NCBI GenBank assembly: GCA_963825095.1
Contig: CAWGRV010000008.1
Location: forward strand, 1-62,355
Origin: an uncultured Nitrosopumilaceae archaeon
Lineage (GTDB): Archaea > Thermoproteota > Nitrososphaeria > Nitrososphaerales > Nitrosopumilaceae
Direction of reading: 5' to 3'
Length of the DNA: 62,355 nt
Positions 4,269 to 48,161 of this stretch are shown here, in pieces. The translations under genes were made by a program, and so were the position numbers. The notes under the pieces were generated by a model, which was not told the DNA's origin, did no database searches, and saw nothing but the letters and a program-made list of their open reading frames with translations. Within the stretch, counting starts at the first letter, position 1. Every line of letters begins with the position of its first letter.

Positions 4269-4404
4269 TATCTTTTTACTCCTAAGAAAATAATGTCCTC
4301 GCCAAAGTCTTTAAAAATCAACTTTTTATTACTTAAAAAGTTGATTTTTAGAAGCGTTAAAAATCTGGACATTATCATTTTCGGGATGAAAAAAACATGG
4401 TCAA

Positions 4405-5064
4405 ATGTTGGGATTTGACGACATATTCGGCGTTGAAATGGATTGCGTCATCTTAAAAGAATTCAATTGCAGTGTCAGGACAAAGGAATATGATTATTTG
4501 TACAACGGCACTTTTGCTTCTTTTAAGAATGATTTAGCATCTTTATTATATTTAGGCGATGCCAAAAGAATTGGTACTTTGTGGGGATGCTCGCAAGTGA
4601 ACGAGTTCCGACATTCGCGTGATCTATTCGAGTGGATGGGAAGTTTAGATATTATTTATGAAAATGATATCAGATTGTTATTACTAGTGTTACTGTTAAT
4701 AAATAAAGAATTCAAGAACTATTTTTTAAAGATGATTATGGGTTATCAGTTAAAACAATTGACAGATGGAAACAAGTTGGTTCTCAAAAAAATCAATGTT
4801 TTTGAGAACGGACAAGATGCTTTTATAACTCCCCATATCTATAAATCTCTGAAGGAAGAACTGAACTCTAAGTCAATTCAACTTATAACACCTGGTGGTA
4901 TCCAAGAAAATATTTGCAAAATGTGTTTTGAAAATGAAATAAATGTGGTTTTAATAAAGTGTGGCCATTTAGTCGTATGTGAAAGGTGCTCCAAAAACAA
5001 ATTAAAAGAATGCCCCATTTGTCGAAAACAAATTGTAGAAATTATGAAAGTTTATAGAACTTGA
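4405..5064 (+). CDS. C-terminal C3HC4 RING finger protein (putative E3 ubiquitin ligase, IAP/MDM2-type RING)
   Basis: ATG at 4405. The C-terminus is CKMCFENEINVVLIKCGHLVVCERCSKNKLKECPICRKQI, a C3HC4 RING at the extreme C-terminus. Confidence 0.65.
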   Translation: MLGFDDIFGVEMDCVILKEFNCSVRTKEYDYLYNGTFASFKNDLASLLYLGDAKRIGTLWGCSQVNEFRHSRDLFEWMGSLDIIYENDIRLLLLVLLLINKEFKNYFLKMIMGYQLKQLTDGNKLVLKKINVFENGQDAFITPHIYKSLKEELNSKSIQLITPGGIQENICKMCFENEINVVLIKCGHLVVCERCSKNKLKECPICRKQIVEIMKVYRT

Positions 5065-5068
5065 GTGA

Positions 5069-6280
5069 CTATCTAATCACATTTATGTGCCCGTTTTTGA
5101 ATTCCATGATTACCGTATTAAATTGCCAAACTTTACCGTTGACTTCTTGGGGGAATTCTAAAATATAATCATCATCACCACACCAAATGCCACCAGAATC
5201 AGCATCATATTCAAGAGGGAACAAACAAAAATACATTGACCCCAATTTATCTGGTAATTTTTCAACATTCCTAACGTCTCTTTCTAAATATTGAAAGTCT
5301 CCCCTTGATAATTCATAGTTCGTGTCCGTAATTTTATTTTTCAGGTTAATGAAATCAATTTTTTTGTCTGTACTCCAAAGCAAAAATTGGCAATAACCAC
5401 GTTTTAGATTGTAGTATGATTTATGTTCGAGAACTGCTTCATTTATTTCTGAAACCACACTCTGATAATTCATGTTTTCAAGTTTTGCTGATTCCATTGC
5501 ATCGACCTCAGAAAAACGAAATTTGAGATAAGTAACCAGGTCTGAATATTTGCTCGATTTTATCTGAACATTTATTTTCTGAGTTGACAAAGATTGAAAG
5601 CATAATTTTGGTTGATGAGATTTCATAAAATATAACGGAATATAATAATAACCATCTATCTTGACAATTTTATGTTTATTGATAAAAGGAGAAACTTCCA
5701 ACGAATACTTTATCGAATACTCATTATTTATAATTATTTGAACTTCAAAAGTGGCTAGGTCGTCCAAATTTATAATTTTTGGAATCAAAAAATAAAGATC
5801 GGATATCAAACCGATTCTTTGGATATCGTAGTCAATAGGCATTGTCGAAAATTGAATGGCTTGCAAATAATAAAGGCAATAGGTCGATCTTCTATAAATT
5901 GTCCGGTGAAAGGTGACATCAGGAGTCGTTTTTATCAATTTATAAAGTCGAGACAAATCCCTATTATAATTTTTATCGAAAGAATCAAAATTGATTTCAC
6001 ATATTGGTTCTTGATTATCTTTTATTTGTTCTTCGATTAAACTATAAAATTTCAATTCTGAATAATATTTGTAAGGATATTCATATTTTGGATTTCTAAG
6101 TAAATTCAAAATATGCCTGAACAATTTTGGATCTCTATCTATAAAATATGGCTCCTCTTTGCTGGTTTTAATAGAACCATTTACATTTTTTATACCACTG
6201 AAATAAGGGGATCTCAGTAGAGTATCTTCGGTTGTTTCGAATATTTGTCCGCCAACATTAAGGTAAACAATTTGCGACAT
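5069..6280 (-). CDS. BTB/POZ (KCTD T1-like) domain protein
   Basis: The N-terminus IVYLNVGGQIFETTEDTLLRSPYFSGI...PYFIDRDPKLFRHILNLLRNPKY is a T1/BTB tetramerisation-like signature. 403 aa. It is a paralog of 7862..8485. Confidence 0.65.
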   Translation of the reverse strand: MSQIVYLNVGGQIFETTEDTLLRSPYFSGIKNVNGSIKTSKEEPYFIDRDPKLFRHILNLLRNPKYEYPYKYYSELKFYSLIEEQIKDNQEPICEINFDSFDKNYNRDLSRLYKLIKTTPDVTFHRTIYRRSTYCLYYLQAIQFSTMPIDYDIQRIGLISDLYFLIPKIINLDDLATFEVQIIINNEYSIKYSLEVSPFINKHKIVKIDGYYYIPLYFMKSHQPKLCFQSLSTQKINVQIKSSKYSDLVTYLKFRFSEVDAMESAKLENMNYQSVVSEINEAVLEHKSYYNLKRGYCQFLLWSTDKKIDFINLKNKITDTNYELSRGDFQYLERDVRNVEKLPDKLGSMYFCLFPLEYDADSGGIWCGDDDYILEFPQEVNGKVWQFNTVIMEFKNGHINVIR

Positions 6281-6403
6281 CTTTGACTTATTCTACTTTT
6301 GATTCACTTATCTTATTTTCATAGCATATCAATTTTTTATAAAAACCAATCTAAAATTTGAAAAGATTATATATTAAATATATATTATCCTTTACATATT
6401 ACA

Positions 6404-7003
6404 ATGATTCCGCCATTAACACTTTTAGCGTGTATTGCTTTTCCCTTAAAAGAAGTTTTGAAAGATAAAAAACAAATTCGAGAATTGATTCAGTATCCAA
6501 TAGAAATAGTCACAGAAGTGTTACACAATTCTCATGATGAGAGAATCAAAACGTATTACGAAACTTATTACGCAATTGACAAAAATTTAAATTTCTTTTT
6601 AGTACAGAAATTGATTCAGAAAATAATTGATGAAACTGGAAAAGAATATGTCCATAAGATGGTTTATAAGGATTTTGAAATCTATCGCTGTTCGAGATGT
6701 GAAGAGAAAAAATCTGCAATTGTAATATTGCCTTGTTTCGATGTAAGGTTCGGTTTTGGAAGTTATTCATGTTATTATTGTTATTTAAGAAATTCTGAAA
6801 TGGACAGAGAACACAGTAAAAAATTAGTAGAGGAAAAATATATGAGAGTGGGGAAGACACTAGAAGATAAACTAAGAAATGGGGAGTTTGAGAGGATTAT
6901 TAAACAAAGGGAATATGTTAAAGAAAAATTAGAATTATTTTTATTGGATAAAGATTTAACAAATTCTTTGCATAATATCGTTACATTGTTTCAAAAAAAT
7001 TGA
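6404..7003 (+). CDS. hypothetical Cys-rich protein
   Basis: 199 aa with a CSRCEEKK...CFDVRFGFGSYSCYYCY cysteine cluster; no confident family assignment. Confidence 0.4.
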   Translation: MIPPLTLLACIAFPLKEVLKDKKQIRELIQYPIEIVTEVLHNSHDERIKTYYETYYAIDKNLNFFLVQKLIQKIIDETGKEYVHKMVYKDFEIYRCSRCEEKKSAIVILPCFDVRFGFGSYSCYYCYLRNSEMDREHSKKLVEEKYMRVGKTLEDKLRNGEFERIIKQREYVKEKLELFLLDKDLTNSLHNIVTLFQKN

Positions 7004-17447: not shown

Positions 17448-18953
17448 CAATGCTAGTAACTTAAGTAAATTTATTCATATTTTTTTTGATAATTTTAACA
17501 TTTTAATGGAAATGATTTCCTAAAATTTCATTTTTATAAATTTCAGAAAATTTCGCAAGAATTCTAAATTATTCATTTGGTCGGCTGTTGTACTTTCTTT
17601 CTGCAAAACATGAATACCTCCGGTAATCCGGCTGCCCATAAATTGATCATCTTATTACATTTTTATAAAAATGATAATGCATACCAATTTATGGGAAAAT
17701 AAAGATTATTTTTTTTCCACAGTGCAATACATGCGACCCTTACTACCCCATTTTGACCCCTTTGGTTTTTTCCTAATTCTCTTATGATGTCTGTTTTTTT
17801 GTATCAATGTAACGGTATCTTCTATTATTGATAATATTCTTAGGATTTTATTTATTCCCGTTTTGCGAGTATTGCCATAAAATAATGCATATAAGAGCTT
17901 CTTTACAAATTTCAGAGTATTCTTCCTGTTTATTTTATATTTATCGCAATTTATATTTTTCATAGCAATGTTTTCGAAAAAGCTATCAATAATAAAAATG
18001 AAATTATGTATAGCTATGTCCTGTTTAACTTTTCCAATTTCTTTTGATTCAATATCTTTCAAAGATAAATCATATTTAGCGTGTCTAAAATTTGTTTCGA
18101 TTTTCCATCGTTTCCAATATAAATCCATTAAAAAATTCATATCTTTATCTATCAATGTTGTTCCCAAAAAATAATCATTTCCATTAAGTTGGTATTTAAT
18201 TAGTTTCAACTTTATTAATGTTCCATCTATATTGATGTTTATTATTTTCTCTGAACAGTTACCATTTAGATGTTTTTTTACAATTGTCAGCGTTGAAACT
18301 AATCGAAATACAACATTTATGCCCTTTCCAATAAGTGTTCTAAATAATTCCTTACTAAAATAACCTCTATCCATTAATAAAACATCGCCAGGTCGAATAT
18401 ATTTTAATTGTCTTTTCAATATGAATCTTTCATCGGAAGAATCACTAATGGTATAATTGATGACCATTTCTTTATCGACATCATATAAACAACTTAACAA
18501 AGCGGTACAGTAATTTTGATTTTTGTCCAATTTAAATCCATTTTCACTAAGGGTAGCATTTAAGTTAATACCACTACCATCAACGGCAATATATCTTTTT
18601 TTATTATCTGCATATATAAAATCAATAAGTGATTGATTAAATATTTCAAAATGGGAATGATCAATATTAGATCGTTTATTAATAATGGCCGTTTTAGTTA
18701 CATTTAAAACATTCTTATATTTTAAAGACGAATTAACGATATCATAACTTAATTTCTCATTATTCTTACGGGAGAGAATATACACGATATCCTTAAAAAA
18801 AACCTTTCTCTTCCGTATCGAAGTGTAAAAATTCAAATCAGATAAAACTCGATTAATATAAATTTTAAAATTTTTAATGATTTTTATAGGGTCCATTAAA
18901 AATAATATATATAAAAAAATTAAAATTATAAAAAACTTAAGTTACCAGCATTG
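17448..18953 (-). mobile_element. IS4-family insertion sequence, copy 1 (1506 bp; 18-bp imperfect TIR CAATGCT[A/G]GTAACTTAAG)
   Basis: Left end caatgctagtaacttaag at 17448-17465; right end cttaagttaccagcattg at 18936-18953. The interior is about 99% identical to copy 2 at 40090..41595. No clean TSD here: the flanks cgccgagca and tgctgagcg are imperfect inverted GC-rich hairpin sequences. Confidence 0.8.
17706..18896 (-). CDS. IS4-family DDE transposase
   Basis: 396 aa. DDE residues lie in AVDGSG, LLMDRGY and KIETNF. LYWKRWKIETNFRHAK matches the IS4-family Y-(2)-R-(3)-E-(6)-K signature exactly. Confidence 0.85.
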   Translation of the reverse strand: MDPIKIIKNFKIYINRVLSDLNFYTSIRKRKVFFKDIVYILSRKNNEKLSYDIVNSSLKYKNVLNVTKTAIINKRSNIDHSHFEIFNQSLIDFIYADNKKRYIAVDGSGINLNATLSENGFKLDKNQNYCTALLSCLYDVDKEMVINYTISDSSDERFILKRQLKYIRPGDVLLMDRGYFSKELFRTLIGKGINVVFRLVSTLTIVKKHLNGNCSEKIININIDGTLIKLKLIKYQLNGNDYFLGTTLIDKDMNFLMDLYWKRWKIETNFRHAKYDLSLKDIESKEIGKVKQDIAIHNFIFIIDSFFENIAMKNINCDKYKINRKNTLKFVKKLLYALFYGNTRKTGINKILRILSIIEDTVTLIQKNRHHKRIRKKPKGSKWGSKGRMYCTVEKK

Positions 18954-19191
18954 TGCTGAGCGTAGGCTCAGTGAACGGAGTTCACTGGCTCCCCGAGCAA
19001 ACGAATGCAAAGTGAGCTTCAGCTCACCTTGCTGGCGCTCGATAATGCTGCGCATTCTCAAACTCCCAAAAAAGTTCGGGGAAGTTTGGCAAAAGCGAAG
19101 CTTTTGCTGAGCCGAAGGCTCAGTGAACTCCGTTCACTTGCTCGCAGAGCGAACGAATGCAAAGTGAGCTGAAGCTCACCTCGCTGGCGCT
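18954..19191. repeat. GC-rich palindromic repeat element (two partial tandem units) abutting the IS right end
   Basis: About 58% GC in a roughly 27% GC genome. Hairpins gctgagcgtaggctcagtgaacggagttcactg and gtgagcttcagctcac; a 44-bp direct repeat at 18997-19040 and 19149-19192. Related copies occur at 19757-19982, 35964-36156, 48021-48146 and 56620-56780. Confidence 0.7.
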
Positions 19192-19756
19192 CAATGCTGG
19201 TACCTTAAGGAAAAAGTATGTCAGTCTCCGAAAATATAATTGTTGTCTTCAACGACGAAAAGATCATCTCCGTCATATAAATCCGTTTCCTATCACACAT
19301 GAGTGCCACGCGATAGTACCATGCGATGGATGAATTGCATCAATTTGAATGATTCCACGCAAATAATTCCAACGCATGGTTCCTTCGCGTGAAATTCATA
19401 TTTTACTTTCTGTGACTTCCCAAAGCACTTCTGCCCTCGCCGCCATTCCTTCTTAATTTATTGTGAGGCCATTATTTGCAGTACTTTAAAGCCTCACATA
19501 AATCGCCCGCGCCAAAGGCGCATTAAGTATTTAATCCTTTTCCTATCACACATTAGTGCCGCGCGATAGTACCGTGCTTGAGATAAATTGCATAAATCCC
19601 AAGTGTTCTATGCAAAGAATTCCAATGCATGGTTCCTTCGCGCAAAATAAAAGAAAAGAACCGCTTAAAATAATGTTCATGTGTATCACTTTTAAAATGG
19701 AAAATTTCAAAAATTATTGGGCGTTTATCATACTTTTCCTTAAGGTACCAGCATTG
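19192..19756. mobile_element. MITE-like non-autonomous element (565 bp) with 19-bp perfect TIRs CAATGCTGGTACCTTAAGG and 10-bp TSD CGCTGGCGCT
   Basis: The left TIR at 19192-19210 is the exact reverse complement of 19738-19756. The flanks 19182-19191 and 19757-19766 are both cgctggcgct. The TIR differs from the IS TIR only at AAC versus ACC. The interior has no long ORF, a roughly 110-bp direct repeat (19279-19390 versus 19540-19650) and a hairpin tgtgaggc...gcctcaca. It is inserted inside a GC-rich repeat unit; the uninterrupted homologous unit is at 19021-19060. Confidence 0.65.
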
Positions 19757-19982
19757 CGCTGGCGCTCGATAATGCTGCGCATTCTCAAACTCCCAAAAAA
19801 GTTCGGGGAAGTTTGGCAAAAGCTTTGCTTTTGCTGAGCCTTCGGCTCTGTGAACTTCGTTCACTTGCTCGTAGAGCAAACGAATGCAATTCGTCGAACG
19901 GAGCGAGATAATACGCAGTATTATTATGAGTCGAGCATTAGCGAGGCGACCTTCGGTTCGCTGAAAAATTGACTCTCAGGAG
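19757..19982. repeat. GC-rich palindromic repeat element
   Basis: gcgctggcgctcgataatgctgcgcattctcaaactcccaaaaaagttcggggaagtttggcaaaagc... is nearly identical to 19030-19095. It continues with the ...gagcaaacgaatgcaa... and gagtcgagc...gagataatacgcagtattatt modules shared with the 48021 and 56620 copies. Confidence 0.65.
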
Positions 19983-21879: not shown

Positions 21880-22401
21880 CTAATTTACTTCAAGTAACCT
21901 GTAATGCTCAATATATTTATCAACAATAGTATAAACATATTTTATTTTATTTTTTTCTTTACTAATTCGACATTTACTAAATTTTATCATTTTCAAAAGA
22001 TAATCCATACATTTCGTTCTTTCGGGTGTATACTTATCCAAAGTGGAGACTAGTAAGCCATCATTGGCATTGGGCTGATGAATTATTGGAGCATCTAACG
22101 TAAATACTTTTTCATTAGTTTCTCTTGTCGTAGAATTGTAAAACTTAAAGTACTCGTTTATAACGTCATGAATTTGTAAAGATAATTTTAATTTGCAATA
22201 ACAAAACGAAACAATTGTAATCAAACCGTAATGAAAACCAAAATGACATAAACCTTCGGGCTCATTTCTTGACTTTTTGTAGATGTCCATTATGTCGTTT
22301 TCCTTAATAAAATTGCAAATTTCATAGAAATGATTTTGACCATAAACTTCGATGAATAACTTTTCATATTTGTTTAGATTCTCCTCATCCATGATTTTCA
22401 C
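21880..22401 (-). CDS. hypothetical protein
   Basis: 173-aa intact ORF; no motif recognised. Confidence 0.4.
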   Translation of the reverse strand: MKIMDEENLNKYEKLFIEVYGQNHFYEICNFIKENDIMDIYKKSRNEPEGLCHFGFHYGLITIVSFCYCKLKLSLQIHDVINEYFKFYNSTTRETNEKVFTLDAPIIHQPNANDGLLVSTLDKYTPERTKCMDYLLKMIKFSKCRISKEKNKIKYVYTIVDKYIEHYRLLEVN

Positions 22402-22592
22402 TTATAATTATCGATATAAATATTTTTTTAGACTGAAATAATTTAATGGAAAAGTGTTTGTCGAGAAAGTGGAGCGCTGGTTCGATGGTGGTCAGGTATC
22501 GGCCAGTAAATAGAAAGATCTATTTTTTGTTCGAAAAATTGAACCAATAAGTATAAGATTATACTTTTACACATTTCTGTTGTAGATGAAAC

Positions 22593-22835
22593 ATGATGTA
22601 CGAAACGATGGACTTAGAAGAAACGAAGGACGACCCGGCGTTCGCAATAGATAAGTTATCAGATTTTATTCGGTCAGTTGCCGAATGCAAAATTTGTTAT
22701 GGCATCTTGAAAAATGCCAAAGAAACGAACTGTTGTCATACTGTCTTTTGCGAAGCATGTATATCTCAATGGGTAAATGTGAGTCGCGGAACATGTCCGA
22801 TATGTCGCGTATTTTTATACCTATTCCAAACCTAA
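22593..22835 (+). CDS. small C3HC4 RING finger protein
   Basis: CKICYGILKNAKETNCCHTVFCEACISQWVNVSRGTCPICR. Confidence 0.5.
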   Translation: MMYETMDLEETKDDPAFAIDKLSDFIRSVAECKICYGILKNAKETNCCHTVFCEACISQWVNVSRGTCPICRVFLYLFQT

Positions 22836-22944
22836 TTTGGAGACTGAGCTCAAAAAATTTGTTTTCTTAGTCGATGAGTATTATCAACAAAAATTTGGCA
22901 TACTTTCCGTCCTCTCCATTTTCCTTTTTGTCACCTTATTACAT

Positions 22945-23460
22945 TTAAATCGCTAAACTCTTTCTGTAAAAATTCTCCAAATCTTTTTCTTTTATTTTTC
23001 TTAGTCCATTTTTTATATTCCTCATCAATTTTTCCTCTTTGTAATTATTTTCTTTCCTTCTCACCATTGATTTCAACTTCGAAAATACTTTTTCTATTGG
23101 ATTATATTCTGGCGAATATGGTACGTTGTATATTATATTGTGATTATTTTTCGCCACATATTCTTTTAATCGTTTCGTGTGATGTATTCTCGCGTTGTCC
23201 ATCAATAAATATTTATTTTCGTCAATTTTGCTTATTAACTCTTCTATGAACTTTAGAAATGTCTCGCCATTTGCCGAATCTTTTATTATCTTTGTATGCA
23301 ATATTTTTCTGTTTGAAATCGCACATATCAGAGTGTATCTTTTGAAGTGTTTAAAGTATTTTTTTAATATCATTTTTTTGCCTTTTTCCGACCAACCGTA
23401 ATTATTTGCAATTCTATTATCAAAATGCGTTTCATCTATTGATATTATATTTCCCTGCAC
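22945..23460 (-). pseudogene. Tc1/mariner (IS630-like, DDE_3) transposase, catalytic-domain-only fragment
   Basis: 171 aa: DETHF...GWSEKG...LICAIS...LLMDNARIHH...YNVPYSPEYNPIEKVFSKLK is the classic DD(34)E catalytic core. The N-terminal HTH DNA-binding domain is missing, because upstream is occupied by an HNH gene. Confidence 0.7.
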
Positions 23461-23505
23461 TCCTTTCAGGAGTTTCGCTGAGCGAAGCGAACGAGTTCGC
23501 CTAAA

Positions 23506-23961
23506 TTATTTAAAATTCGAATAATTTCTCTTATTATATTTTGCTCTATTCTCTATTTTCCATAAAGGTTGTAAATTTCGAAAATTGAAACACTCAAAAA
23601 TATTTTGTTTTATAGAGAAATCAAATGAAGAAACAGGAATAATATGGTCTATTTCCCATTCTCCATAATTTTTAAAATTCATACCTTCGATAAGCAAATC
23701 AAAAATGTGTTTTTCTAATTCCTGAATAGAACAACCAATTATTTCCTGATAGGAATTGTTGAGGATTAAATTGTTATCCTTGTATATCTTATAGATCCTA
23801 TTTTTAATATTATCATAGATTTTAAAAAATCCGCCTTTATTTCTCTGATTTTTTGCTTTTTGAATAAGTTTCTTTTTAATTCTTTTTTGTTTATATTAGT
23901 CTTTATAAAAGAGTGTTATTTTTTCAGAAATGTATGCCTGTTTATTGAATTCTTCACTCAT
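23506..23961 (-). pseudogene. HNH endonuclease, apparently frameshifted
   Basis: The C-terminal reading frame ...GMNFKNYGEWEIDHIIPVSSFDFSIKQNIFECFNFRNLQPLWKIENRAKYNK carries an HNH motif. That frame extends upstream without an ATG, to a TAA at about 23890. An ATG at 23961 opens a different frame, MSEEFNKQAYISEKITLFYKD*, so an N-terminal piece and a C-terminal piece sit in different frames. Confidence 0.5.
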
Positions 23962-23978
23962 ATAAGTTTAAATATTAG

Positions 23979-24254
23979 CTTTTATTTAAATATAAAGAAA
24001 ATTTCAAATTTATAGCGAAGTTTACTTCGCCGAGCAAAGCGAGACGCCAGAGGCGTGCATGGAAAGCAGAAGAAATTTGTTTAAGACATGGCTTGCTACG
24101 TTGCGAAAACGTTCATAATGGCGAACCAAAAAAACAAATTTTAATGAACCGAGATTTCAATGCGGCAATGAATATATTAAGAAAAGCAAAATGCATATTG
24201 AAGAATTTGCCAATACCAGAATATTTGCAAAGGAAAAAAGAAAGAAAAGATTAA
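23979..24254 (+). pseudogene. TnpB/Fanzor-like (IS200/IS605 OrfB) C-terminal relic
   Basis: An open frame with no start codon encodes ...AWKAEEICLRHGLLRCENVHNGEPKKQILMNRDFNAAMNILRKAKC.... The (D/N)RDxNAAxNIL motif is characteristic of TnpB/Fanzor RuvC-III C-termini. Only about 90 codons remain. It overlaps a GC-rich hairpin at 24005-24060. Confidence 0.5.
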
Positions 24255-24588
24255 AAAATCAGTCCAGTTTCATCGACTAGGACATAGGCAAAAAGGCGAA
24301 ACCAAATAAACCGATACAGAAAAGACGCGCCCGAGTAGCTCTTTTACAGTATGAAAAAACTAACCATTCCAAAAATACTCAAAAAAAATGCTCAAAAAAA
24401 AAATTTGAAAATTTCTACAAATAAAAAATGGAATGGGTATAAAATTTTCTGAGAGTAAATGAATAGATCATCACTCGGAGTCTTAAAATTGGACATATTA
24501 AAGATGCATTGGAGTGTTATCAAAGAAGGTCAGGTGACAATAAAAAAGCTGAGTGTGAAACCTATTTGGCTATATTGGAAAACAAATT

Positions 24589-25722
24589 TTAAATTTTTTT
24601 CTTTATCCTAATATATTTTTTTCCACCTCTTTGGGTCATTTTATGTGTCTCCGTAAGATTCATATTTAGACTTCTGATCTTTTCAAAATAAGTTTCTATG
24701 TCTATGTTTTGGCCTTTTGCTATTTTACTAAGCATTGACACCATAAAAATGAGAATGCTGTTAATAGTGCTAGTAATTTTTTCAAAATTTGGTATTTTGT
24801 TTTCTTCGAGTTTTTGTTTTACTTTATTTGTCGAATCCAATATTTTGTGACCCAATCTATTAAAAATGTCTTTATCACTTTTGATACTATCGTAAAAATG
24901 TAAAGGGAAATAATTAGCCGATTGTCTACCATATAAAATTTCTCTAATTTTCTCCTGGCCGAACCACATTTCTAAAATAACAAGTGCTATTGCCCACCAA
25001 TCGGAGGTTTGAATTACTTGTATTGATACTTCTTTATTTAGTGAGTCATTCAACTGTGGAGAGGCATAAAGTGGTGTGATATCAGTTACTTTACATATAT
25101 TAGTACTAGAATGAAAACAAAACGTGTCGAAATCAGTAATTGCTAGTGAATTATCATGCAAATTGACTAGTATGTTATTCGGTTTTATATCTCCATGGGC
25201 TGCTCCTTCCTTGTGTAAATAATGGACTGCCTCGAATAATTCTTTTACCCATTTAATAAATTGATCAAAAAAATATTGAGGATTTAATGTTATATTTTTC
25301 TCAAAAGAGCCCTTTTTTTCTATTTCTCGTAACAGATCGGTATTAAAATACTTCATTAAAATATAACCACAAATATTGTCTTTATTTTCAATACCTAAAT
25401 AGCAATTAATGTTATCATGTTTGCATACCGTTTCAGTGGATAAAGATAGAAATCCCTTTTTGGAAAATTCGTTAAAGATTTCCATTTCATTTTTAAATTT
25501 TTCTTTATTTTCTTCATCGTTCAATAGCTCAATTACTTTCAGTGCATAACTCGACTCTTGAGTTTTCGGATCTTGTAATAGCAGTAAATAGACTTTGCCG
25601 TAAGCTCCCTGCCCTAAAACACGAGTCACCCTAAATCCTCGGAGTAATTTTACTTTCAGCTCCTTTCCCAAATCGACATTTTGGTTTATATATTTTGATA
25701 AATCACAAGACTGTTCAGTCAT
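24589..25722 (-). CDS. Ser/Thr protein kinase
   Basis: VLGQGAYGKVY (Gly loop), YALKVI (VAIK), HGDIKPNNILV (catalytic loop) and ITDFDT (DFG-like) within a 377-aa ORF. Confidence 0.8.
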   Translation of the reverse strand: MTEQSCDLSKYINQNVDLGKELKVKLLRGFRVTRVLGQGAYGKVYLLLLQDPKTQESSYALKVIELLNDEENKEKFKNEMEIFNEFSKKGFLSLSTETVCKHDNINCYLGIENKDNICGYILMKYFNTDLLREIEKKGSFEKNITLNPQYFFDQFIKWVKELFEAVHYLHKEGAAHGDIKPNNILVNLHDNSLAITDFDTFCFHSSTNICKVTDITPLYASPQLNDSLNKEVSIQVIQTSDWWAIALVILEMWFGQEKIREILYGRQSANYFPLHFYDSIKSDKDIFNRLGHKILDSTNKVKQKLEENKIPNFEKITSTINSILIFMVSMLSKIAKGQNIDIETYFEKIRSLNMNLTETHKMTQRGGKKYIRIKKKI

Positions 25723-35963: not shown

Positions 35964-36156
35964 ATCGCTCGGCAAAAGCTTTGCTTTCGCCCGCGTAAAG
36001 CGAGGTAAGCAGTTGCTGCTTGACGAACTTTGTTCGCTTATCAAGATGTTAGTTTCTTTACCAAGCAGCACCGTCGGTGATCTCGCTCTGTTCGGCAGCT
36101 ACGCTGCATTTCAGGATTTTATTTGACCAGCATTGTGCTCGGCGAACATAATTCGC
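35964..36156. repeat. GC-rich palindromic repeat element with solo IS-end-like motif
   Basis: cgctcggcaaaagctttgctttcgcc (compare gctcagcaaaagctttgcttttgc elsewhere), ...accagcattgtgctcggcgaacataattcgccg at 36126-36156. The motif accagcattg|tgctSRgcg is the same junction seen at the IS copy 1 right end (18944-18962). Confidence 0.5.
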
Positions 36157-36220
36157 CGTTTAGTTTCTTTATTAAATTCAAAATCCACTAAATAATTTTC
36201 AGTATATAAATATAATAAAA

Positions 36221-37984
36221 ATGAGTGGCTCGAAGGAGTTATGTAAGAAAAATGATTTTAAAAATGAGGAAATTAAAGATGAAATAGAAGTTGTGCCATT
36301 ACAAACATACGAAACAGACGAATCAAGTAAAAAAGAAAAAAGATCTAAGGAACATAAACATCATAAGAAACATAAAAGTCATAAGCAATCCAAAAGCTCG
36401 AGGGAAGGAAAAAATTTGATTGGGCCAACAGGCCATACTGGTCCTACTGGACCAACAGGTCCTACTGGACCAACAGGTCCTACTGGACCAACAGGTCCTA
36501 CTGGTCTGGGAATTACTGGCCCAACAGGTTCTACAGGTTCCAATGGTCTGGGAATTACTGGTCCAACTGGAGTTCCTGGTCCAACTGGATCCATCGGGCC
36601 GGGCGCGAGCACTGTAGAAACAATTGCAGATTTAAGATTAACACAACCTTCATCAAACGTCGATTCAGTCACAGTTGAAGGTTATTATAACATCGGTGAT
36701 TTAGGCGGCGGGGAATTTGTTTATAATCCAAACGATACTACAAGCGCTGATAATGGAGGCACTATTATTGTGGCGAATGGTTTGTATCGTTGGTATCGGT
36801 TGAGTGATGGTGTTGTGACCGTGAAGCAATTTGGGGCCCAGGGCAATGGGATAAATGACGACACAACCGCCATTCAAAATGCTATAAATTTTGGTTCTGG
36901 CACGATTTATGTACCAAAAGGTAACTATTTAATAAGCCAATCAATTGTTTTCAATAATCCCGTAAACATAATCGGTGATGTACCAACAAGTTTTTTAAAT
37001 TCAGGAATGACGCCAACTAGTCCATATGCCTCTTGCCTAAAACTTGCGAACAACGCAAACTGCCCAATGTTTCTAATTAATACTTCTGAATCTCCGTATG
37101 GTGGTATTATTCAAAATCTAGAATTTAATGGCAATGATGCAAATCAAACTGGTGGCACAAATGTTTATGGCCTTTATTTTGCAAATGGCACCAGTGGTAC
37201 TATCGGCAGTCAATGGAAGATAGAAAAATGCTATATACATAATATTTATGATCACGGAATATTGATTGATACAGATCATATAGGGGTGAAACTCTTATAT
37301 GTTCAAGTATTTCGTGTGGGTACCGGCAGTTTAAGTGGATCTGGAATAGTTGCAAATGGAAGTAATGCAACGTTTTTCAATTGTAATATCGGGGAATGTT
37401 GGTACAATGGATTCTTGCTCCAAACCGGAAATAGTAACCTTTCCCAATGTAGTATATTTAGTTCTGGACGGTCATTTACTGGAACTGTCGGAACAGCAGC
37501 CGGTCGTGCCATTAATGTAGCTTCGAATGGTTCAAATAATATGATAATTGGTTGTACAATATCAGGAAATTATGGTGGTGGAATTTATCTGGACGGAGAC
37601 TACAACACTATTACGGGATGTTTATTTGCTGGAAATAACGGTGCTGAATTAACAGGTGTTCATGGATCTGATATTTATGTTGCCGATACTTCCGGTACGC
37701 AAACGATAGCAGCAAATGTGTTTGCTCAGCCTTCAGCGAACTATACAAGTCAATATGGCGTTCAATTCGCATCAAACGCAGCGGCCAGAATGAATAGCAA
37801 TACATTCGATAATACTAATTTTACGGTCTCTTTTACAAATCAAACGGCTTATATATTAGACGCCACGACTTCGGTGGCTGCAAGTACAGGATCAGCTATT
37901 TTACCATCAAATCCAGTTGGTTTTATAGAGGTGAATTTAAACGGCACCGGTACCTTATATAAAATACCGTATTACAATGTGTGA
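36221..37984 (+). CDS. collagen-like protein with pectate-lyase-fold (PF12708-like) right-handed beta-helix domain
   Basis: His/Lys-rich N-terminal leader ([16 protein letters not shown]). A G-P-T-G tandem array sits at about 36418-36600, built from 18-bp units. Then comes ...[31 protein letters not shown]...[39 protein letters not shown], typical of pectate-lyase-superfamily, tailspike or depolymerase N-termini. Parallel beta-helix repeats follow. Confidence 0.8.
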
Positions 37985-38050
37985 AAACGACAAAAATAGA
38001 AAATCAAAACTTGATTGTTATGCGATAATTAGAAACTATGTTCAAAATCC

Positions 38051-40089
38051 ATGAAATATTTCGCTTATATAAATATAATCAAAATGGATGAATCAGAGGA
38101 ATCCCAGAGAAATGATTTCAAAAATGATCAAATCGAAAATGAAATAGAAATTACGCCGTTGCAAATATACCGTAAATATGAGGTGAATAAAAAAGAAAAG
38201 GGATCCAAAAAACACAAACATCATAAAATGTGCAAAAGTGAGAAAAAATCCGGAGACTCGAGAAAAAAAAAATATTTAATTGGGCCAACTGGTCCTAGCG
38301 GCCCAACAGGCCACATTGGTCCAACCGGTCCAACTGGTAAAAACGGTCTGGGAATTACTGGCGCGACTGGATCGATCGGACCAACCGGTACAGAGTTAAC
38401 CTTGCCGAATATAGCATCCCTCAGGGCAACTGCTCCTAATTCGAGTTTGGAATCACTTGTTGTCGAAGGATATTACATTCCCGGGGATGGAGGTGGTGGT
38501 ACATTTTTTTATGATTCTACTGATGTAATAACCCCGGATAACGGGGGAACAGTAATCGTCGCATCTGGCTCATCTGACCCAACTGCAAGATGGAAAAGAA
38601 TTTATGTTCCGAGAAACATATCAGCAAAATGGTTTGGTGCAAAAGGAGACGGAGCCACAGATGACACCATCGCTTTGACAAATTGTTTAGATCTGGCTCA
38701 GAACCTGAATGGAGCCTCCATATATCTGCCTTCTGGAATTTATGTTATTTCGGAGACATTGAATGTAACAGTTTCGAATGTAAGCATTAAAGGTGATGGG
38801 CATCCCGTATGGACAGACGTCAATCCAGATCAAGACTATACTTGTATCAGTTGGAATGGGGCGAGCGGAGCAGCGATGCTTTCAGTATCGGCAATAGAAG
38901 GGCCGAGTAATGATGTTATAAGCTGCGTCGATGTAATCGGAGTGGGATTCTTGGGCAATGGAACAGCTGCCTACGGAATTGCAATTGGCTCGCAATGGTA
39001 TGGTAAATATGATGTTTATATAGAAAATTGTACGATAGCCCTCTTTTATACTTATTGCCTCGCCCAATTAGCCAAACATTGTGATGTACAAATGTTGGAT
39101 GTTTTATTAAATGGTAAACAGATTAGTGGAACAGGTGCGGGATTATTGTTGACCGGGAATGCTGAAAGTTTGCCGGCAGGCTCGGACACTTCGCTTTGTA
39201 TTTTCAGGCATGTGAGTGTGTTAATCGGCGAAAATAATACCGGAGTGATTTTAGGTAACACCGATCACAATTTATTTTTAATTCTAGCGACGCCACCAAA
39301 GACAGCCACAACCGGTCCAAGTGTTGTCTTTCAAGCGGCTGCAACGGGCCAAGAACCGGCGCGTTACAATCTCATAATTGAATTGGCTAGCGGAAAGGGA
39401 CAAGTAGTAGCTCAGGGAACGGAAACACAAGTCAATCCCTCTAATGGAAATATTATTCAATATATCAACTTCGTAGGAGCCGCATTGCCCTCTATTGGCA
39501 CCGGGGCCGACTTAGCTTGGGGTTCAGATAATAATATTTTCGGTCCGCGCGGATTTTTCGGAGTAGCGATTGCGGATCAATTCGGCACTGCGAGAACGGC
39601 TTACGATGCATTAACTACTGAATCTTTGAGAGTGGCTAATGGAATGAGTAACCATATTATCTTATCGAATCCGCCAAATACCGTAAATTGGAGTGTGAAT
39701 ATAGAAAATTCCAATGGTGAAATGAGAATGTACAGTACAACTAACCCAACTGAACCATTAGTCGTGAGTAATCCAATGGCCGCGGCATCACCAGTCGTTT
39801 TCGCGTCATCCGCTGATCTTTCTCATGAAATATCAGCCGCCGGTACTGAAACATTACGCCTAAATAATTCATCTAGTAATCATTTATTGTTGACAGCTAA
39901 TACGCACGATGCGGATCAATGGGGAATGAATATCGACGGATCAGGAAATTTAAATTTCACTCATCCGGCCGGGACGGGTACTGGAAGTTTTACCGGGGAT
40001 ATGACATTTAACAATCAATTAACAGTTACTGATAATTTCAATCCGCAGAGTAAAACCATATTTGGTGCCACTGCAAGTCCAGCACCGCA
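38051..40089 (+). pseudogene. collagen-like/beta-helix fibre protein, 5' part, disrupted by IS4-family insertion
   Basis: Same architecture as 36221..37984: K/H-rich leader, GPTG repeats, LRATAPNSSLESLVVEGYYIPGDGGGGTFFY...AKWFGAKGDGATDDTIAL. The native frame runs into the IS at 40090. The annotated ORF end (40165, ...HNASNLSKFIHIFFDNFNILMEMIS) is IS-encoded read-through. Confidence 0.75.
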
Positions 40090-42258: not shown

Positions 42259-43599
42259 TTAAGACGGAGTATAGGAGAGACTCGCGCTAAATGAAAGTTG
42301 AGTAATATCAGCGGCAGCTGCATCCGACGACGCATTCGCAGGTCTTATTCTGATACCAATTCGATCTCCGACACTAACCACTAATGGTCCGACGCTGAAG
42401 TTAGTAGCAGCGTAAAAAGTACCGGCAACAATACCGGGACCAGCAAATGTGACTGAACAATTCAATGGGGTAGTAACATATGACGATGCGACATGATTCG
42501 TCCCATCATTCGGGCTGGATGGTGCGCGAAAAACGGTAAATATATACGTCAACGGATTTGTATTAATGAAAGCGACAGATGCAACAAGTAAATCTACGCT
42601 GACCTGAAGGTTCTGCACGGTACCATTGAACGGTATCGGAAACGCAAATCCGGCAGCTTGTGGCGGCATTGTCGATTCACCACTGCCATTAATAGTTTCG
42701 ACTGTATTATTACCAAAACCCATTAGAATTGGAGCGGCTTGAACAACTGTTGCCCCGCTAATAATAATTCCAGTTGAAAAAGGGATTATTCCTGCCGAGC
42801 CGGCGATCCCCTGCGGTCCCGTCGGGCCAATTAATCCCTGTAAGCCCTGTATTCCTTGAATGCCTTGTGGTCCGGCAATACCTTGCGGACCAGTTGGCCC
42901 AATAGGTCCTTGCGGACCAACTGGACCGGCAGGACCAACGGAACCTGTACCGCCTGTACCCCCACCCGCAGCACCAGTCGGACCCAGAGGGCCTGCAACG
43001 CCCTGAATACCCTGGATACCCTGAATGCCTTGAGTGCCGGTAGGACCAATGGGTCCCTGGAGACCGGTAACACCCTGCAAACCTTGAATTCCTTGGATGC
43101 CCTGTATCCCCGGTATTCCCGGTATTCCTATCGGACCGGTGGGACCGGTGATTCCGGAAGAACCCGCGCCAGTCGGGCCAGTTGGACCAGTTGGACCAGT
43201 CGGGCCAGTTGGGCCAGTTGGACCGATAAATCCATTCAAACCTTGTTTACCTCTTCTGCCTCTTTTTCCCCTACTACCCTTCTTGCCCCTTTCACCCCGG
43301 GTACATTTTTCAGAATGATGCTTTTTATGATGAACTTTTTTGCTACAAGATTCTTTTGAATGATGCTCCTTACCATGGGATCTTTTGCTGCTCGCTTTTT
43401 TAGAATGATGGTCCTTACTGTGAGATTTTGTGCTACAGGATTCTTTTGAATGATGCTGTTGCCTGTGAGATTTTTTCCGGTAGCTACTTTTTTTTTTTAA
43501 TCCATCACGATGCCCATATTTTTTGCCTAGGCGATCAATGGCCTTTAGCCCGAAAAACCGTTTCACTTGACGACGATCTTTGTCATTTCTTTTTTTCAT
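42259..43599 (-). CDS. collagen-like protein with His-rich N-terminal leader and C-terminal globular domain
   Basis: The leader has repeated HHSKESCS/KKxHH units. About 200 residues of G-x-y (GPTGPTG..., GIQGIQG...) follow. The C-terminal roughly 150-aa domain is possibly C1q/BclA-like, by inference only. Confidence 0.75.
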
Positions 43600-43812: not shown

Positions 43813-46311
<2,499 letters not shown>

Positions 46312-48146: not shown

Positions 48147-48161
48147 AACATGTTGACTTAT

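What the first reader, a model, noticed from the sequence alone, without database searches (positions are those of the whole stretch)
22886..24254. Composite graveyard of three unrelated mobile-element genes: Tc1/mariner DDE fragment, HNH endonuclease, TnpB/Fanzor-like relic
Within 1.4 kb there are three elements. The first is a minus-strand Tc1/mariner catalytic core lacking its HTH half. The second is an abutting minus-strand HNH endonuclease split across two frames. The third is a plus-strand 90-codon frame without a start codon ending ...CENVHNGEPKKQILMNRDFNAAMNILRKAKC*, a TnpB/Fanzor C-terminal signature. GC-rich hairpins (23463-23500; 24005-24060) sit at the junctions. This suggests successive insertions into one another followed by decay. 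TnpB/Fanzor homologs in giant viruses are of current interest, and this relic marks a former ISvMimi-like element.
Basis: partly seen in the sequence, partly recalled or inferred. Interest (0 to 1): 0.6.

Follow-up and report, generated by a model that had tools for sequence, protein, structure and literature searches.

The report
Gutted Fanzor transposon carrying HNH cassette
The three "unrelated relics" are two ends of one giant-virus jumping gene (a Tc1/mariner-type transposon that normally carries a Fanzor RNA-guided nuclease), and its 2.3-kb middle has been replaced by a small, already broken HNH nuclease cassette; this kind of element is known and the copy is ordinary.

Summary
An intact 3.38-kb relative (L010) has a 314-aa IS630/Tc1-mariner DD34E transposase gene and a 680-aa Fanzor1 gene. 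The two genes are transcribed divergently and sit between imperfect terminal inverted repeats (TIRs). Window 22814-23455 matches one end of that element at 97.5% identity, and 24061-24443 matches the other end at 94.8%. The 2.3 kb between them in L010 is replaced in the window by 605 bp (23456-24060). This insert is a self-contained HNH cassette bounded by GC-rich hairpin inverted repeats, and the same architecture flanks HNH homologues in three unrelated metagenome contigs. The HNH gene lies in one frame with a single TAA at codon 22, not in two frames. The nuclease is Fanzor1, closest to SpuFz1 (E=1.4e-44), not an ISvMimi/IS607-type element. The same deletion derivative occurs at one or more other genomic sites, so it behaves as a non-autonomous transposon. 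Fanzor1 plus IS630/Tc1-mariner elements in giant viruses, including gutted copies, are already published. It is a new member of a known kind, with modest interest.

The parts
22593..22835 (+). Host RING-finger gene (80 aa) into whose 3' end the element inserted. Its last codons and stop codon (...RVFLYLFQT*) are supplied by the transposon end.
   Evidence: Pfam zf-C3HC4_2 1.8e-8. Homology to the element begins at 22814. An AAAATTGA promoter-like motif lies 58 nt upstream, at 22535.
22814..22843 (.). Terminal inverted repeat on the transposase side (TTTATACCTATTCCAAACC...).
   Evidence: the repeat finder pair I1, 22813-22843 with 24414-24444, 31 nt, 77% complementary. Three copies (window, L010, L011) lose similarity exactly here. 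The TIR motif TTTATACCC.TTCC is conserved in L171 and L172.
22945..23455 (-). 3' part of the IS630/Tc1-mariner DD34E transposase gene. It covers residues 146-314 of 314. The catalytic D (IDET), D (MDNA) and E (NPIE) are all present, and the N-terminal DNA-binding half is deleted.
   Evidence: Pfam DDE_3 1.4e-28 and NCBIfam IS630 2.3e-27. 98% identity to P0069 residues 146-314. blastn to L010 is 97.5% over 22814-23455.
23456..23505 (.). Gene-downstream end of the HNH cassette: TGCA followed by three short GC-rich stem-loops (CTCCTTTCAGGAG, TTCGCTGAGCGAA, GCGAACGAGTTCGC). This is an inverted-repeat arm of the cassette.
   Evidence: Fold -11.9 kcal/mol, z = -3.4. 15/15 nt match to the TIR of the L012 and L013 HNH cassettes. 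The junction with transposon sequence is at 23455/23456. The same junction is present in L011 and is implied by the N-terminus of P0001.
23506..23961 (-). HNH (His-Me finger) endonuclease pseudogene. It is 151 codons in one frame with a single nonsense codon (TAA, codon 22, plus-strand 23896-23898).
   Evidence: Translation. 46 homologues, the closest about 60% identical and 141-167 aa long. Invariant W..DHI...NLQPLW motif, with Lys in homologues at the stop position. PHROG 1035 endonuclease VII 7.4e-9. 8 of 24 family members hit Pfam HNH or HNH_4. The same TAA is present in L011.
23962..24060 (.). Gene-upstream end of the HNH cassette: an AT-rich promoter-like stretch, then GC-rich stem-loops (GCGAAGTTTACTTCGC, ACGCCAGAGGCGT) ending ...TGCAT. 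This is the second inverted-repeat arm.
   Evidence: Fold -10.4 kcal/mol, z = -2.3. Inverted-repeat pair 23474-23492 / 24020-24038. The core TCTCGCTTTGCTCGGCGAA (reverse complement of 24026-24044; L174 shares at least CTCGCTTTGCTCGGCGAA, 18 nt) lies upstream of the HNH gene in L174, with a compensatory change in the adjacent stem.
24061..24254 (+). Last 64 codons plus stop codon of a Fanzor1 (eukaryotic/viral TnpB-like RNA-guided nuclease) gene. It retains the HGLLR motif and the third RuvC motif NRDFNAAMNIL.
   Evidence: blastn to L010 4096-3695 at 94.8%; only 2 substitutions fall in the coding part. The parent 680-aa protein matches SpuFz1 8GKH at E=1.4e-44 over residues 8-673. Exhaustive phmmer gave 50 hits, the full-length ones (580-845 aa) at their extreme C-termini.
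24255..24413 (+). 3' non-coding region of the Fanzor gene, retained and identical to L010 apart from a roughly 20-nt indel in an A-rich repeat. It contains a conserved small hairpin module at 24343-24368 (TTTAC-AGT-ATGAAAAA-ACT-AACCATT). This is a candidate part of the guide-RNA (omegaRNA/fRNA) scaffold or a transposase-binding site.
   Evidence: Alignment. Thirteen lineage variants of the module: 5 of 5 pairs show compensatory changes, 86% of cells paired against 60% in shuffles, 0 of 500 shuffles as high, slid controls at most 45%.
24414..24443 (.). Terminal inverted repeat on the Fanzor side (...ATGGAATGGGTATAAA).
   Evidence: the repeat finder pair I1. Similarity between the window and L010 ends exactly here. 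L171 ends ...GGAACGGGTATAAA.

Best explanation
Window 22814-24443 is a 1.63-kb non-autonomous, internally replaced copy of a roughly 3.4-kb giant-virus DNA transposon.

The parent element has imperfect TIRs of about 30 bp. Between them lie a 314-aa IS630/Tc1-mariner DD34E transposase gene and a divergently transcribed 680-aa Fanzor1 gene with a 3' non-coding tail of about 190 nt.

In this copy, 2.3 kb (the first 145 transposase codons, the 55-bp promoter spacer and the first 616 Fanzor codons) has been replaced by a 605-bp HNH-endonuclease cassette. The cassette brings its own promoter-like region and GC-rich hairpin inverted-repeat ends. Its HNH gene carries a nonsense mutation.

Shown:
- co-linearity with an intact element;
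- exact junctions;
- the TIRs;
- a second copy at a different site with the same transposase-side junction and the same HNH stop codon (that contig does not reach the Fanzor-side junction), plus a third copy implied by a protein;
- conservation of the cassette architecture elsewhere.

Inferred:
- The derivative no longer encodes any working protein but keeps both TIRs. It would therefore be moved in trans by the transposase of intact copies in the same virus population, by cut-and-paste.
- It also keeps the Fanzor 3' tail and right end, where Fanzor/TnpB guide RNAs are encoded. It could therefore still supply a guide RNA to Fanzor made elsewhere.
- The HNH cassette arrived in one event, because both junctions coincide with the cassette's natural termini. 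The route was either its own endonuclease-driven insertion with loss of the intervening DNA, or capture as filler DNA during double-strand-gap repair after excision.
For: - Co-linearity: window 22814-23455 = L010 7076-6435 (97.5%) and window 24061-24443 = L010 4096-3695 (94.8%), with L010 genes at 3903-5945(-) and 6001-6945(+).
- Parent nuclease: it matches the solved Fanzor1 structures SpuFz1 (1.4e-44, near full length) and PpFz1 (1.3e-37). D410, E585 and R647 are invariant and D648 nearly invariant in 18 relatives.
- Transposase: DDE_3 and IS630 hits.
- Ends: the TIR pair and identical element boundaries in three copies with unrelated flanks.
- Other copies of the derivative: L011, an independent Logan assembly, matches window 22814-23927 at 98.2%, including the hairpin junction and the HNH TAA, but has a different flank. 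P0001, on another contig of 75,747 nt, begins MRSAKLLKGVQGN, which is read-through of the same hairpin junction.
- Layout in relatives: the divergent DDE_3/Fanzor layout and the TIR motif recur in L171 and L172. 38 of 77 IMG/VR relatives, many from giant-virus MAGs, have a DDE_3 homologue within about 3 kb.
- HNH cassette architecture: inverted repeats plus outer variable hairpins occur in L012, L013 and L174.
- Literature: Fanzor1 with IS630-Tc1-Mariner elements, including non-autonomous copies with both ends kept, is described in a giant virus (bioRxiv 10.1101/2024.09.03.611062; PMC10530073).
Against: - The right-hand junction (24060/24061) is seen only in this contig. L011 stops before it, so a metagenome assembly join there is not excluded.
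- No target-site duplication could be demonstrated. Flanks next to TTTA...TAAA show no direct repeat in the window, in L010, in L172 or in 9 IMG/VR copies.
- Trans-mobilisation and guide-RNA function are inferences with no expression or activity data.
- The conserved 3' hairpin has only a 3-bp stem in this lineage.
- The other copies could come from related strains rather than from the same genome.
Confidence: 0.85

Rival explanations
1. One reading: three unrelated mobile elements (a Tc1/mariner element, an HNH element and an ISvMimi-like TnpB element) inserted successively into one another at this spot and then decayed independently.
For: Three different nuclease or transposase families are present within 1.4 kb and none is intact.
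Against: - The DDE and Fanzor fragments are co-linear with one intact TIR-bounded element.
- The same two-gene layout recurs in relatives.
- There is no serine recombinase or IS607 feature, and the nuclease is Fanzor1.
- Both fragments are 95-99% identical to the intact copy, so there has been little independent decay.
Confidence: 0.04
2. Assembly artefact: the metagenome assembler joined a transposon end, an HNH cassette and another transposon end through shared repeats, and no such molecule exists.
For: The window is a whole metagenome-type contig of 62,355 nt. The genome contains multiple copies of the transposon and many related GC-rich hairpin repeats. The right junction is unsupported elsewhere.
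Against: The left junction, the hairpins and the HNH gene with the same stop codon are reproduced in an independent Logan assembly of another run. They are also implied by a protein on a third contig. The junctions fall exactly at the cassette's natural termini rather than inside shared repeats.
Confidence: 0.06
3. Sub-mechanism A. The HNH cassette is itself mobile, a free-standing homing-endonuclease-type unit with hairpin TIRs. It invaded an intact Fanzor transposon, and the 2.3 kb was lost in the same break-repair event. The derivative then spread by transposition in trans.
For: - The cassette has conserved modular inverted-repeat ends in four unrelated loci.
- Both junctions coincide with those ends.
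- A homologous HNH gene also lies inside another Fanzor/mariner element, L040.
- Cassette-end modules occur scattered in other intergenic hairpin arrays of the window.
Against: - No target-site similarity was found between the two breakpoints in L010 beyond a TTTCC/GGAAA inverted pentamer.
- Only 1 of 77 Fanzor loci carries such an HNH gene.
- The HNH gene was already broken in both copies that can be read.
- No empty or filled site pair for the cassette is known.
Confidence: 0.4
4. Sub-mechanism B. The cassette is passive filler. After excision of a copy, gap repair from a sister copy aborted and switched template to an HNH locus elsewhere in the viral genome. This is the usual way internally deleted Tc1/mariner, P and Ac derivatives with foreign inserts arise.
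For: Internally deleted derivatives that retain both ends are typical of cut-and-paste DNA transposons and are reported for giant-virus Fanzor elements. The HNH gene is non-functional.
Against: There is no microhomology at either junction. Template switching would rarely start and stop exactly at the natural ends of another unit. No donor HNH locus is present in this 62-kb window.
Confidence: 0.3

Closest known systems
Fanzor1-encoding IS630/Tc1-Mariner elements of giant viruses (families A-C of the Chlamydomonas endogenous giant virus 'Punuivirus', bioRxiv 10.1101/2024.09.03.611062). More generally, Fanzor1 associated with Mariner/Tc1 transposons (Sci Adv 2023, PMC10530073).
   Same: - The full-length element carries a Fanzor1 gene and an IS630/Tc1-mariner transposase between TIRs.
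- There are multiple nearly identical copies per virus.
- Non-autonomous copies keep both ends but have lost or degraded their gene content.
- The host is a giant virus.
   Different: - The interior is replaced by a foreign HNH cassette rather than simply deleted.
- This Fanzor lineage lacks the CxxC...CxxC zinc-finger cysteines and has a conserved HGLLR motif instead.
- The virus is Mimiviridae-like by promoter motif, not the algal virus of that paper.
- No phylogeny was built here.
SpuFz1, the Spizellomyces punctatus Fanzor1 (PDB 8GKH)
   Same: The parent 680-aa protein aligns over nearly its whole length (E=1.4e-44), including the three RuvC motifs. The window relic aligns to the segment HGLL.C...NRD.
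   Different: - The window keeps only the last 64 residues, so no nuclease can be made.
- Guide RNA was not demonstrated.
- Host and transposon context differ.
   Same: A TnpB-superfamily nuclease carried by a transposon in a giant virus.
   Different: Those use a serine recombinase (TnpA) and Fanzor2. Here the partner is a DDE transposase, and the nuclease matches the Fanzor1 structures. Neither TnpA nor an IS607 feature was found.
Free-standing HNH homing endonuclease genes of large DNA viruses and phages (for example T4 mob/seg-type 'intronless homing', and the HNH genes in Bodo saltans virus, PMC5871332)
   Same: A small stand-alone HNH gene with its own promoter-like signal, lodged between or inside other genes, often found decayed.
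   Different: - It is bounded by modular GC-rich hairpin inverted repeats, which I did not find described in the papers read.
- The target site is unknown.
- The gene here is a pseudogene.
Internally deleted non-autonomous Tc1/mariner derivatives and MITEs (for example the Submariner MITEs of Pandoravirus; from my own knowledge)
   Same: They retain TIRs, have lost transposase function and depend on autonomous copies.
   Different: This copy still carries long gene fragments and a foreign gene cassette, and only 2-3 copies are documented.

Membership tests
IS630/Tc1-mariner (DDE_3) transposase | DDE_3 catalytic domain scoring above the curated threshold | tested here: met
   Pfam DDE_3 100.1 bits against a 28.6 cut-off, E=1.4e-28. 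NCBIfam IS630 scores 96.2 bits against a 100 cut-off, just below threshold because only half the protein is present.
IS630/Tc1-mariner (DDE_3) transposase | D, D, E triad with about 34 residues between the second D and the E (DD34E) | tested here: met
   Read directly from the translation: SIDET, LLMDNA and NPIEK, with 34 residues between the D of MDN and the E of PIE.
IS630/Tc1-mariner (DDE_3) transposase | N-terminal paired helix-turn-helix DNA-binding domain | tested here: not met
   The window copy starts at residue 146 of 314. The intact L010 protein has the extra 145 residues, but they give only a weak HTH_33 hit (E=0.018).
IS630/Tc1-mariner (DDE_3) transposase | Terminal inverted repeats flanking the element | tested here: met
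   31-nt pair, 77% complementary, at the exact limits of homology among three copies. The motif is conserved in L171 and L172, and relatives in IMG/VR have perfect 22-bp TIRs.
IS630/Tc1-mariner (DDE_3) transposase | TA target-site duplication | tested here: inconclusive
   Every copy begins TTTA and ends TAAA, with no direct repeat outside those bases. This fits a TA duplication within a TTTAAA target, or a TIR that includes TTTA with no duplication. No empty site was available to decide.
Fanzor1 (TnpB-like RNA-guided nuclease) | Full-length sequence homology to experimentally characterised Fanzor1 | tested here: met
   For the parent (L010): 8GKH SpuFz1 E=1.4e-44 over residues 8-673, and 9CF0 PpFz1 1.3e-37. 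For the window fragment alone: Pfam Cas12f1-like_TNB only E=0.07, but exhaustive phmmer gave 50 hits at E<=1e-3, the full-length ones (580-845 aa) at their extreme C-termini.
Fanzor1 (TnpB-like RNA-guided nuclease) | Split RuvC catalytic D...E...D | tested here: not met
   The parent family has invariant D410 (GIDP) and E585 (VNE) and nearly invariant D648 (NRD). The window retains only the third motif (NRDFNAAMNIL), so it cannot encode an active nuclease.
Fanzor1 (TnpB-like RNA-guided nuclease) | Zinc-finger (CxxC...CxxC) insertion between RuvC-II and RuvC-III | tested here: not met
   L010 and its close relatives have no cysteine pairs there and carry an invariant HGLLR instead. More distant giant-virus relatives (L017, L040) do have TSCxCSxC...C..C.
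Fanzor1 (TnpB-like RNA-guided nuclease) | Guide RNA (omegaRNA/fRNA) encoded at the 3' end of the gene and running to the transposon right end | tested here: inconclusive
   The 3' tail is retained and almost identical to L010. It includes a hairpin module with covariation across 13 lineages. Rfam gave no match, and a 3-sequence consensus fold was uninformative. There are no RNA data.
   The partner gene is a DDE_3 transposase. The best solved matches are all Fanzor1.
HNH (His-Me finger) endonuclease | Catalytic beta-beta-alpha motif residues (DH ... N ... N/H) | tested here: met
   WEIDHIIP...NLQPLW..EN..K, with D105, H106, N129, Q131, P132 and L133 invariant in 24 sequences. PHROG 1035 endonuclease VII 7.4e-9.
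HNH (His-Me finger) endonuclease | Pfam HNH-family model above the gathering score | tested here: not met
   The window copy scores 13.3-13.5 bits against cut-offs of 21.4 and 22. 8 of 24 family members hit HNH and 8 of 24 hit HNH_4 at E<=0.01, best 5.7e-6. A profile search against PDB sequences found nothing.
HNH (His-Me finger) endonuclease | Intact open reading frame | tested here: not met
   TAA at codon 22 of 151. There is no alternative ATG before residue 94. The same stop codon is present in L011.
Free-standing homing endonuclease cassette | Site-specific cleavage of a cassette-free allele, with copying into it | not testable with these tools
   No empty or filled allele pair was found. 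Only the conserved inverted-repeat architecture in the window, L012, L013 and L174 is shown.

The most novel reading that the evidence does not exclude
The 605-bp HNH unit may represent an undescribed class of small mobile cassette in Mimiviridae-like giant viruses. It would consist of an early-promoter-driven HNH gene bounded by modular GC-rich inverted repeats made of short stem-loops, whose stems co-vary between copies. The HNH-less arrays of the same stem-loop modules scattered through intergenic regions of this genome (18953-19205, 19745-19960, 35966-36160, 48030-48150) would be its MITE-like offspring. On this reading the locus records one selfish element (an HNH cassette) gutting and then hitch-hiking on another (a Fanzor1 transposon), while the Fanzor guide-RNA region stays usable in trans.
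Probability: 0.25. Interest if true: 0.55.

Novelty: new member of a known kind. Interest (0 to 1): 0.3.

Why it matters
- It converts a puzzling "graveyard" into a clear case: a non-autonomous Fanzor1/Tc1-mariner transposon in a Mimiviridae-like giant virus.
- It points to an intact sister copy (L010) encoding a complete, zinc-finger-less Fanzor1 and its transposase, which could be tested as an RNA-guided nuclease.
- About 80 related loci in giant-virus metagenome bins share a co-varying 3' hairpin that may help define the guide RNA of this clade.
- The HNH cassette with hairpin inverted repeats is a small lead on how selfish elements nest and disable one another in giant-virus genomes.
- None of this overturns current understanding.

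Tried and rejected
- A word-indexed homology search with the 89-aa fragment found nothing. The exhaustive search was needed.
- A single-sequence search of IMG/VR with the transposase gave only relatives of about 30% identity. The same search with the Fanzor gave none. An alignment-based search worked.
- Exact-pattern searches found nothing for the right TIR or for the right junction.
- Exact look-ups of P0001, P0066 and P0068 were not on record. The sister contigs of 75,747 and 167,012 nt therefore could not be read.
- Rfam gave no meaningful match in 22400-24800.
- A consensus fold of three 3' tails was uninformative.
- A PDB profile search for the HNH family gave no hit.
- Target-site duplication: I tried every register around TTTA/TAAA in the window, L010, L172 and 9 IMG/VR copies without a consistent external repeat.
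- No other copy of any of the three genes exists in the window.
- An apparent 18-bp in-frame deletion at the Fanzor junction was rejected. It is explained by a GGAAAGCAG direct repeat in L010, and the junction is simply at 24060/24061.
- A 27-nt match of the cassette TIR in a GC-rich bacterial LRR gene (L173) was judged unrelated.
- One of my notebook entries gives the HNH stop codon as 23898-23900. The correct position is 23896-23898.
Full report
WHAT IS IN THE SEQUENCE

The window is AT-rich (34% G+C) and is a complete contig of 62,355 nt in public collections.

- On the minus strand, 22945-23460 is a 171-codon ORF. It hits Pfam DDE_3 at E=1.4e-28 and the NCBIfam IS630 transposase model over positions 146-297 of 299. 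The catalytic D (SIDET), D (LLMDNA) and E (NPIEK) are all present, with 34 residues between the last two.
- Also on the minus strand, 23506-23961 is a single 151-codon frame with one internal TAA at codon 22 (plus-strand 23896-23898). It is not split over two frames.
- On the plus strand, 23985-24254 is stop-free for 89 codons and ends ...RKAKCILKNLPIPEYLQRKKERKD*.
- Short GC-rich stem-loops lie at 23459-23500 and 24015-24057. They fold better than shuffles, with z = -3.4 and -2.3.

THE DECISIVE COMPARISON

A homology search with the DDE fragment found a 90%-identity cluster. It contains the window's own protein, truncated versions on contigs of 75,747 and 167,012 nt, and a 314-aa full-length protein. 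The contig encoding the full-length protein was retrieved as L010 (ENA ERZ25039558 contig_54161). blastn of the whole window against L010 gave two strong matches:
- 22814-23455 = L010 7076-6435, at 97.5% identity;
- 24061-24443 = L010 4096-3695, at 94.8% identity. The differences are two substitutions and one indel of about 20 nt in an A-rich repeat.

In L010 these two blocks are the outer parts of one 3.38-kb unit. That unit holds a 680-aa gene (3903-5945, minus strand) and the 314-aa transposase gene (6001-6945, plus strand), which diverge from a 55-bp spacer. In the window, L010 4097-6434 (2.3 kb) is missing and 605 unrelated bases (23456-24060) stand in its place. The junctions are sharp and show no microhomology.

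THE 680-aa PROTEIN IS A FANZOR1

A phmmer search against PDB sequences matches Spizellomyces punctatus Fanzor1 (8GKH) at E=1.4e-44 over residues 8-673. It also matches Parasitella Fanzor1 at 1.3e-37 and Guillardia Fanzor1 at 2.9e-9.

In an alignment of 18 relatives, the RuvC residues D410 (GIDP) and E585 (VNE) are invariant, as is R647, and D648 (NRD) is nearly invariant. An HGLLR motif is also invariant. The usual zinc-finger cysteines are absent in this lineage.

The window keeps only the last 64 codons (KAEEICLRHGLLRC...NRDFNAAMNIL...). By itself the fragment gives only a sub-threshold Pfam hit (Cas12f1-like_TNB, E=0.07) and nothing in the word-indexed search. An exhaustive phmmer search against 1.8 billion representatives gave 50 hits at E<=1e-3 (best 8e-12), the full-length ones (580-845 aa) at their extreme C-termini.

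'ISvMimi-like' is not. Those elements are IS607-type with a serine recombinase and Fanzor2, as summarised in PMC10530073.

ONE ELEMENT WITH TERMINAL INVERTED REPEATS

The limits of homology (22814 and 24443) coincide with a 31-nt imperfect inverted repeat, 22813-22843 with 24414-24444. Three copies (window, L010, L011) share ...GGAATAGGTATAAA at the transposase end and diverge completely beyond it. The window and L010 share ...GGAATGGGTATAAA at the Fanzor end.

Two relatives whose Fanzor proteins are about 50% identical (L171, L172) have the same divergent DDE_3/Fanzor layout and the same terminal motif TTTATACCC.TTCC.

An alignment-based search of IMG/VR found 77 loci encoding relatives at 27-41% identity, many of them from giant-virus MAGs. 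Of these, 38 have a DDE_3 homologue within about 3 kb upstream. Several are bounded by perfect 22-bp repeats, TTTACACCCTTGAAGATTTAAA.

No external target-site duplication is visible in any copy. All copies begin TTTA and end TAAA. This fits a TA duplication inside a TTTAAA target, which I infer from the family rule, but it cannot be proved without an empty site.

The element sits in the 3' end of an 80-aa RING-finger gene (22593-22835), whose last nine codons and stop codon now come from the repeat.

THE HNH CASSETTE

The HNH-like frame has 46 homologues; the closest are about 60% identical and 141-167 aa long. The alignment shows the His-Me finger signature W-E-I-D-H-I...N-L-Q-P-L-W..E-N..K. 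Homologues have Lys at the position of the window's TAA, so one AAA-to-TAA change accounts for the stop.

The window copy is below Pfam thresholds. However, 8 of 24 family members hit HNH and 8 of 24 hit HNH_4, and the protein hits PHROG 1035 'endonuclease VII' at 7.4e-9.

In three other metagenome contigs the homologous gene is flanked by the same kind of ends:
- L012 has a 38-nt inverted repeat, 87% complementary.
- L013 has a 28-nt perfect inverted repeat, TTCGCTTCGCTCAGCTCACTTTGTTCGC.
- Both also have an outer stem-loop whose stem sequence differs between copies.
- L174 shares the core TCTCGCTTTGCTCGGCGAA with the window's upstream end. The neighbouring stem has changed compensatorily, GCGAAG/CTTCGC against GCGAAC/GTTCGC.

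The L012 and L013 repeats have their best match in the window (15/15 nt) inside 23477-23491. In the window the two arms are degraded, at 19 nt and 74% complementarity.

L012 and L013 carry AAAATTGA about 40-45 nt upstream of the HNH start (43 and 41 nt to the motif's first base). This octamer is enriched in the window (37 occurrences against 21.6 +/- 4.5 in shuffles). It also sits about 34-74 nt (mostly 47-60) upstream of many ORFs. It is the Mimiviridae-type early promoter motif, as stated for BsV, mimiviruses and CroV in PMC5871332.

Both junctions with transposon DNA fall exactly at those ends, which argues for a single replacement event.

THE DERIVATIVE HAS MOVED OR BEEN COPIED

L011 is a 1,156-nt contig from an independent Logan assembly (SRR28023564). 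It matches window 22814-23927 at 98.2%, with the same DDE/hairpin junction and the same TAA in the HNH gene, but it has an unrelated flank beyond the repeat.

P0001, on the 75,747-nt contig, starts MRSAKLLKGVQGN. The window's minus strand reads LRSAKLLKGVQGN through the hairpin. That makes a third copy of the same junction.

The cluster also contains split full-length copies on the 167,012-nt contig.

The unit therefore behaves as a non-autonomous transposon. It has both repeats, no working gene and at least two locations. Mobilisation in trans by the 314-aa transposase is inferred, not shown.

THE RETAINED 3' TAIL

In TnpB and Fanzor systems the guide RNA is encoded at the 3' end of the gene and runs to the right end of the transposon (PMC10530073). 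The window keeps this whole region.

Across 13 distinct lineages a module TTTACAC-stem-(T)GAAA-loop-stem-AACCTT lies between the stop codon and the right end. All five pairs show compensatory changes, and 86% of cells pair against 60% in shuffles (0 of 500 shuffles as high). Slid controls reach at most 45%. The sequences were picked by flanking motifs, not by pairing.

The window's version (24343-24368) has only a 3-bp stem. This is suggestive of a guide-RNA scaffold or a transposase-binding site, but it is not decisive. Rfam has nothing there.

ORIGIN

No hallmark capsid or polymerase gene lies in the window. The following point to a Mimiviridae-like giant virus, by inference:
- the promoter motif;
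- the gene content, which includes BTB, ankyrin, RCC1, collagen-like repeats, a kinase, a P450 and a sulfatase;
- the giant-virus MAG relatives.

COMPARISON WITH WHAT IS KNOWN

Fanzor1 associated with Mariner/Tc1 transposons is established (PMC10530073). A 2024 preprint on a Chlamydomonas giant endogenous virus describes three Fanzor1 families. [quoted passage not shown] The locus is therefore a new member of a known kind.

The less familiar part is the HNH cassette with modular hairpin inverted repeats that replaced the core. I found no description of it in the papers searched, but that search was shallow.

VERDICT

The best explanation is a gutted Fanzor1/Tc1-mariner transposon with an HNH cassette in place of its core (confidence 0.85). 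Interest is modest (0.3).

Noticed in passing
window 18943-19960, and 17706-18896 (-): A 1.2-kb intergenic region is packed with short GC-rich stem-loops (for example GCTGAGCGTAGGCTCAG, TGAACGGAGTTCA, GAGCTTCAGCTC). An array of about 150 nt is repeated directly (about 19030-19160 and 19755-19890), and a second internal repeat occurs at about 19290 and 19543. The region lies next to a 396-aa DDE_Tnp_1 (IS4/IS5-like) transposase gene (Pfam 1.6e-15). It could be another mobile element or its remains.
   Followed up: partly
window 35966-36160 and 48030-48150: Further HNH-less arrays of the same kind of GC-rich stem-loops. Pieces of the L012/L013 HNH-cassette repeat occur in them: TAAGCGAACAAAGT at 36027-36040 and GAGCGAAGCGA at 48037-48047. 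CAAAGTGAGCTGA also occurs at 19160-19172. This suggests a modular repeat family related to the cassette ends.
   Followed up: partly
window, whole (for example 20020, 22535, 25800, 30576, 31182, 33161, 49639): AAAATTGA is enriched (37 occurrences against 21.6 +/- 4.5 in shuffles). It sits about 34-74 nt (mostly 47-60) upstream of many ORF starts on the correct strand. This is the Mimiviridae-type early promoter motif and indicates the kind of virus.
   Followed up: partly
L040 1762-6982: A distant relative of the element (5.2 kb) carries a DDE transposase, a 113-aa ORF, a 160-aa HNH of the same family, a 359-aa cysteine-rich ORF and a zinc-finger-containing Fanzor. It also has two tandem left-end repeats, at 1762 and 1794. 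HNH genes have therefore lodged in Fanzor/mariner elements more than once, but in only 1 of 77 loci.
   Followed up: partly
L029, L031, L051 (IMG/VR): Elements of 2.4-2.6 kb, bounded by the perfect 22-bp repeat TTTACACCCTTGAAGATTTAAA, contain only the Fanzor gene and no transposase. They are another non-autonomous form. Elements of 4.4-5.2 kb carry a transposase plus cargo ORFs.
   Followed up: no
L098 about 1150-2300: A more distant HNH homologue (37% identical) on a 160-kb AT-rich contig is flanked by a 126-nt inverted repeat that is itself built from several short stem-loops. It shares no sequence with the GC-rich repeats seen here.
   Followed up: no
L173 700-726: The 27-nt core of the HNH-cassette repeat matches exactly inside a GC-rich bacterial gene for a leucine-rich-repeat protein (…LASLSSLTSLRSL…). 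I judged it a coincidence of a quasi-pentameric sequence, but an exact 27-mer is unexpected.
   Followed up: no
window 36400-39400 and 42780-46300: Long GC-rich stretches encode collagen-like Gly-X-Y repeats (GGACCAACTGGTCC... periodicity) inside large ORFs on both strands. They account for most GC-rich islands in the window.
   Followed up: no
L013 3440-3500: The HNH ORF in L013 runs on into a degenerate extra copy of the cassette repeat (3446-3475), giving a C-terminal tail ...SEAEQGRSN. This shows that the hairpin repeats can be duplicated within a cassette.
   Followed up: no
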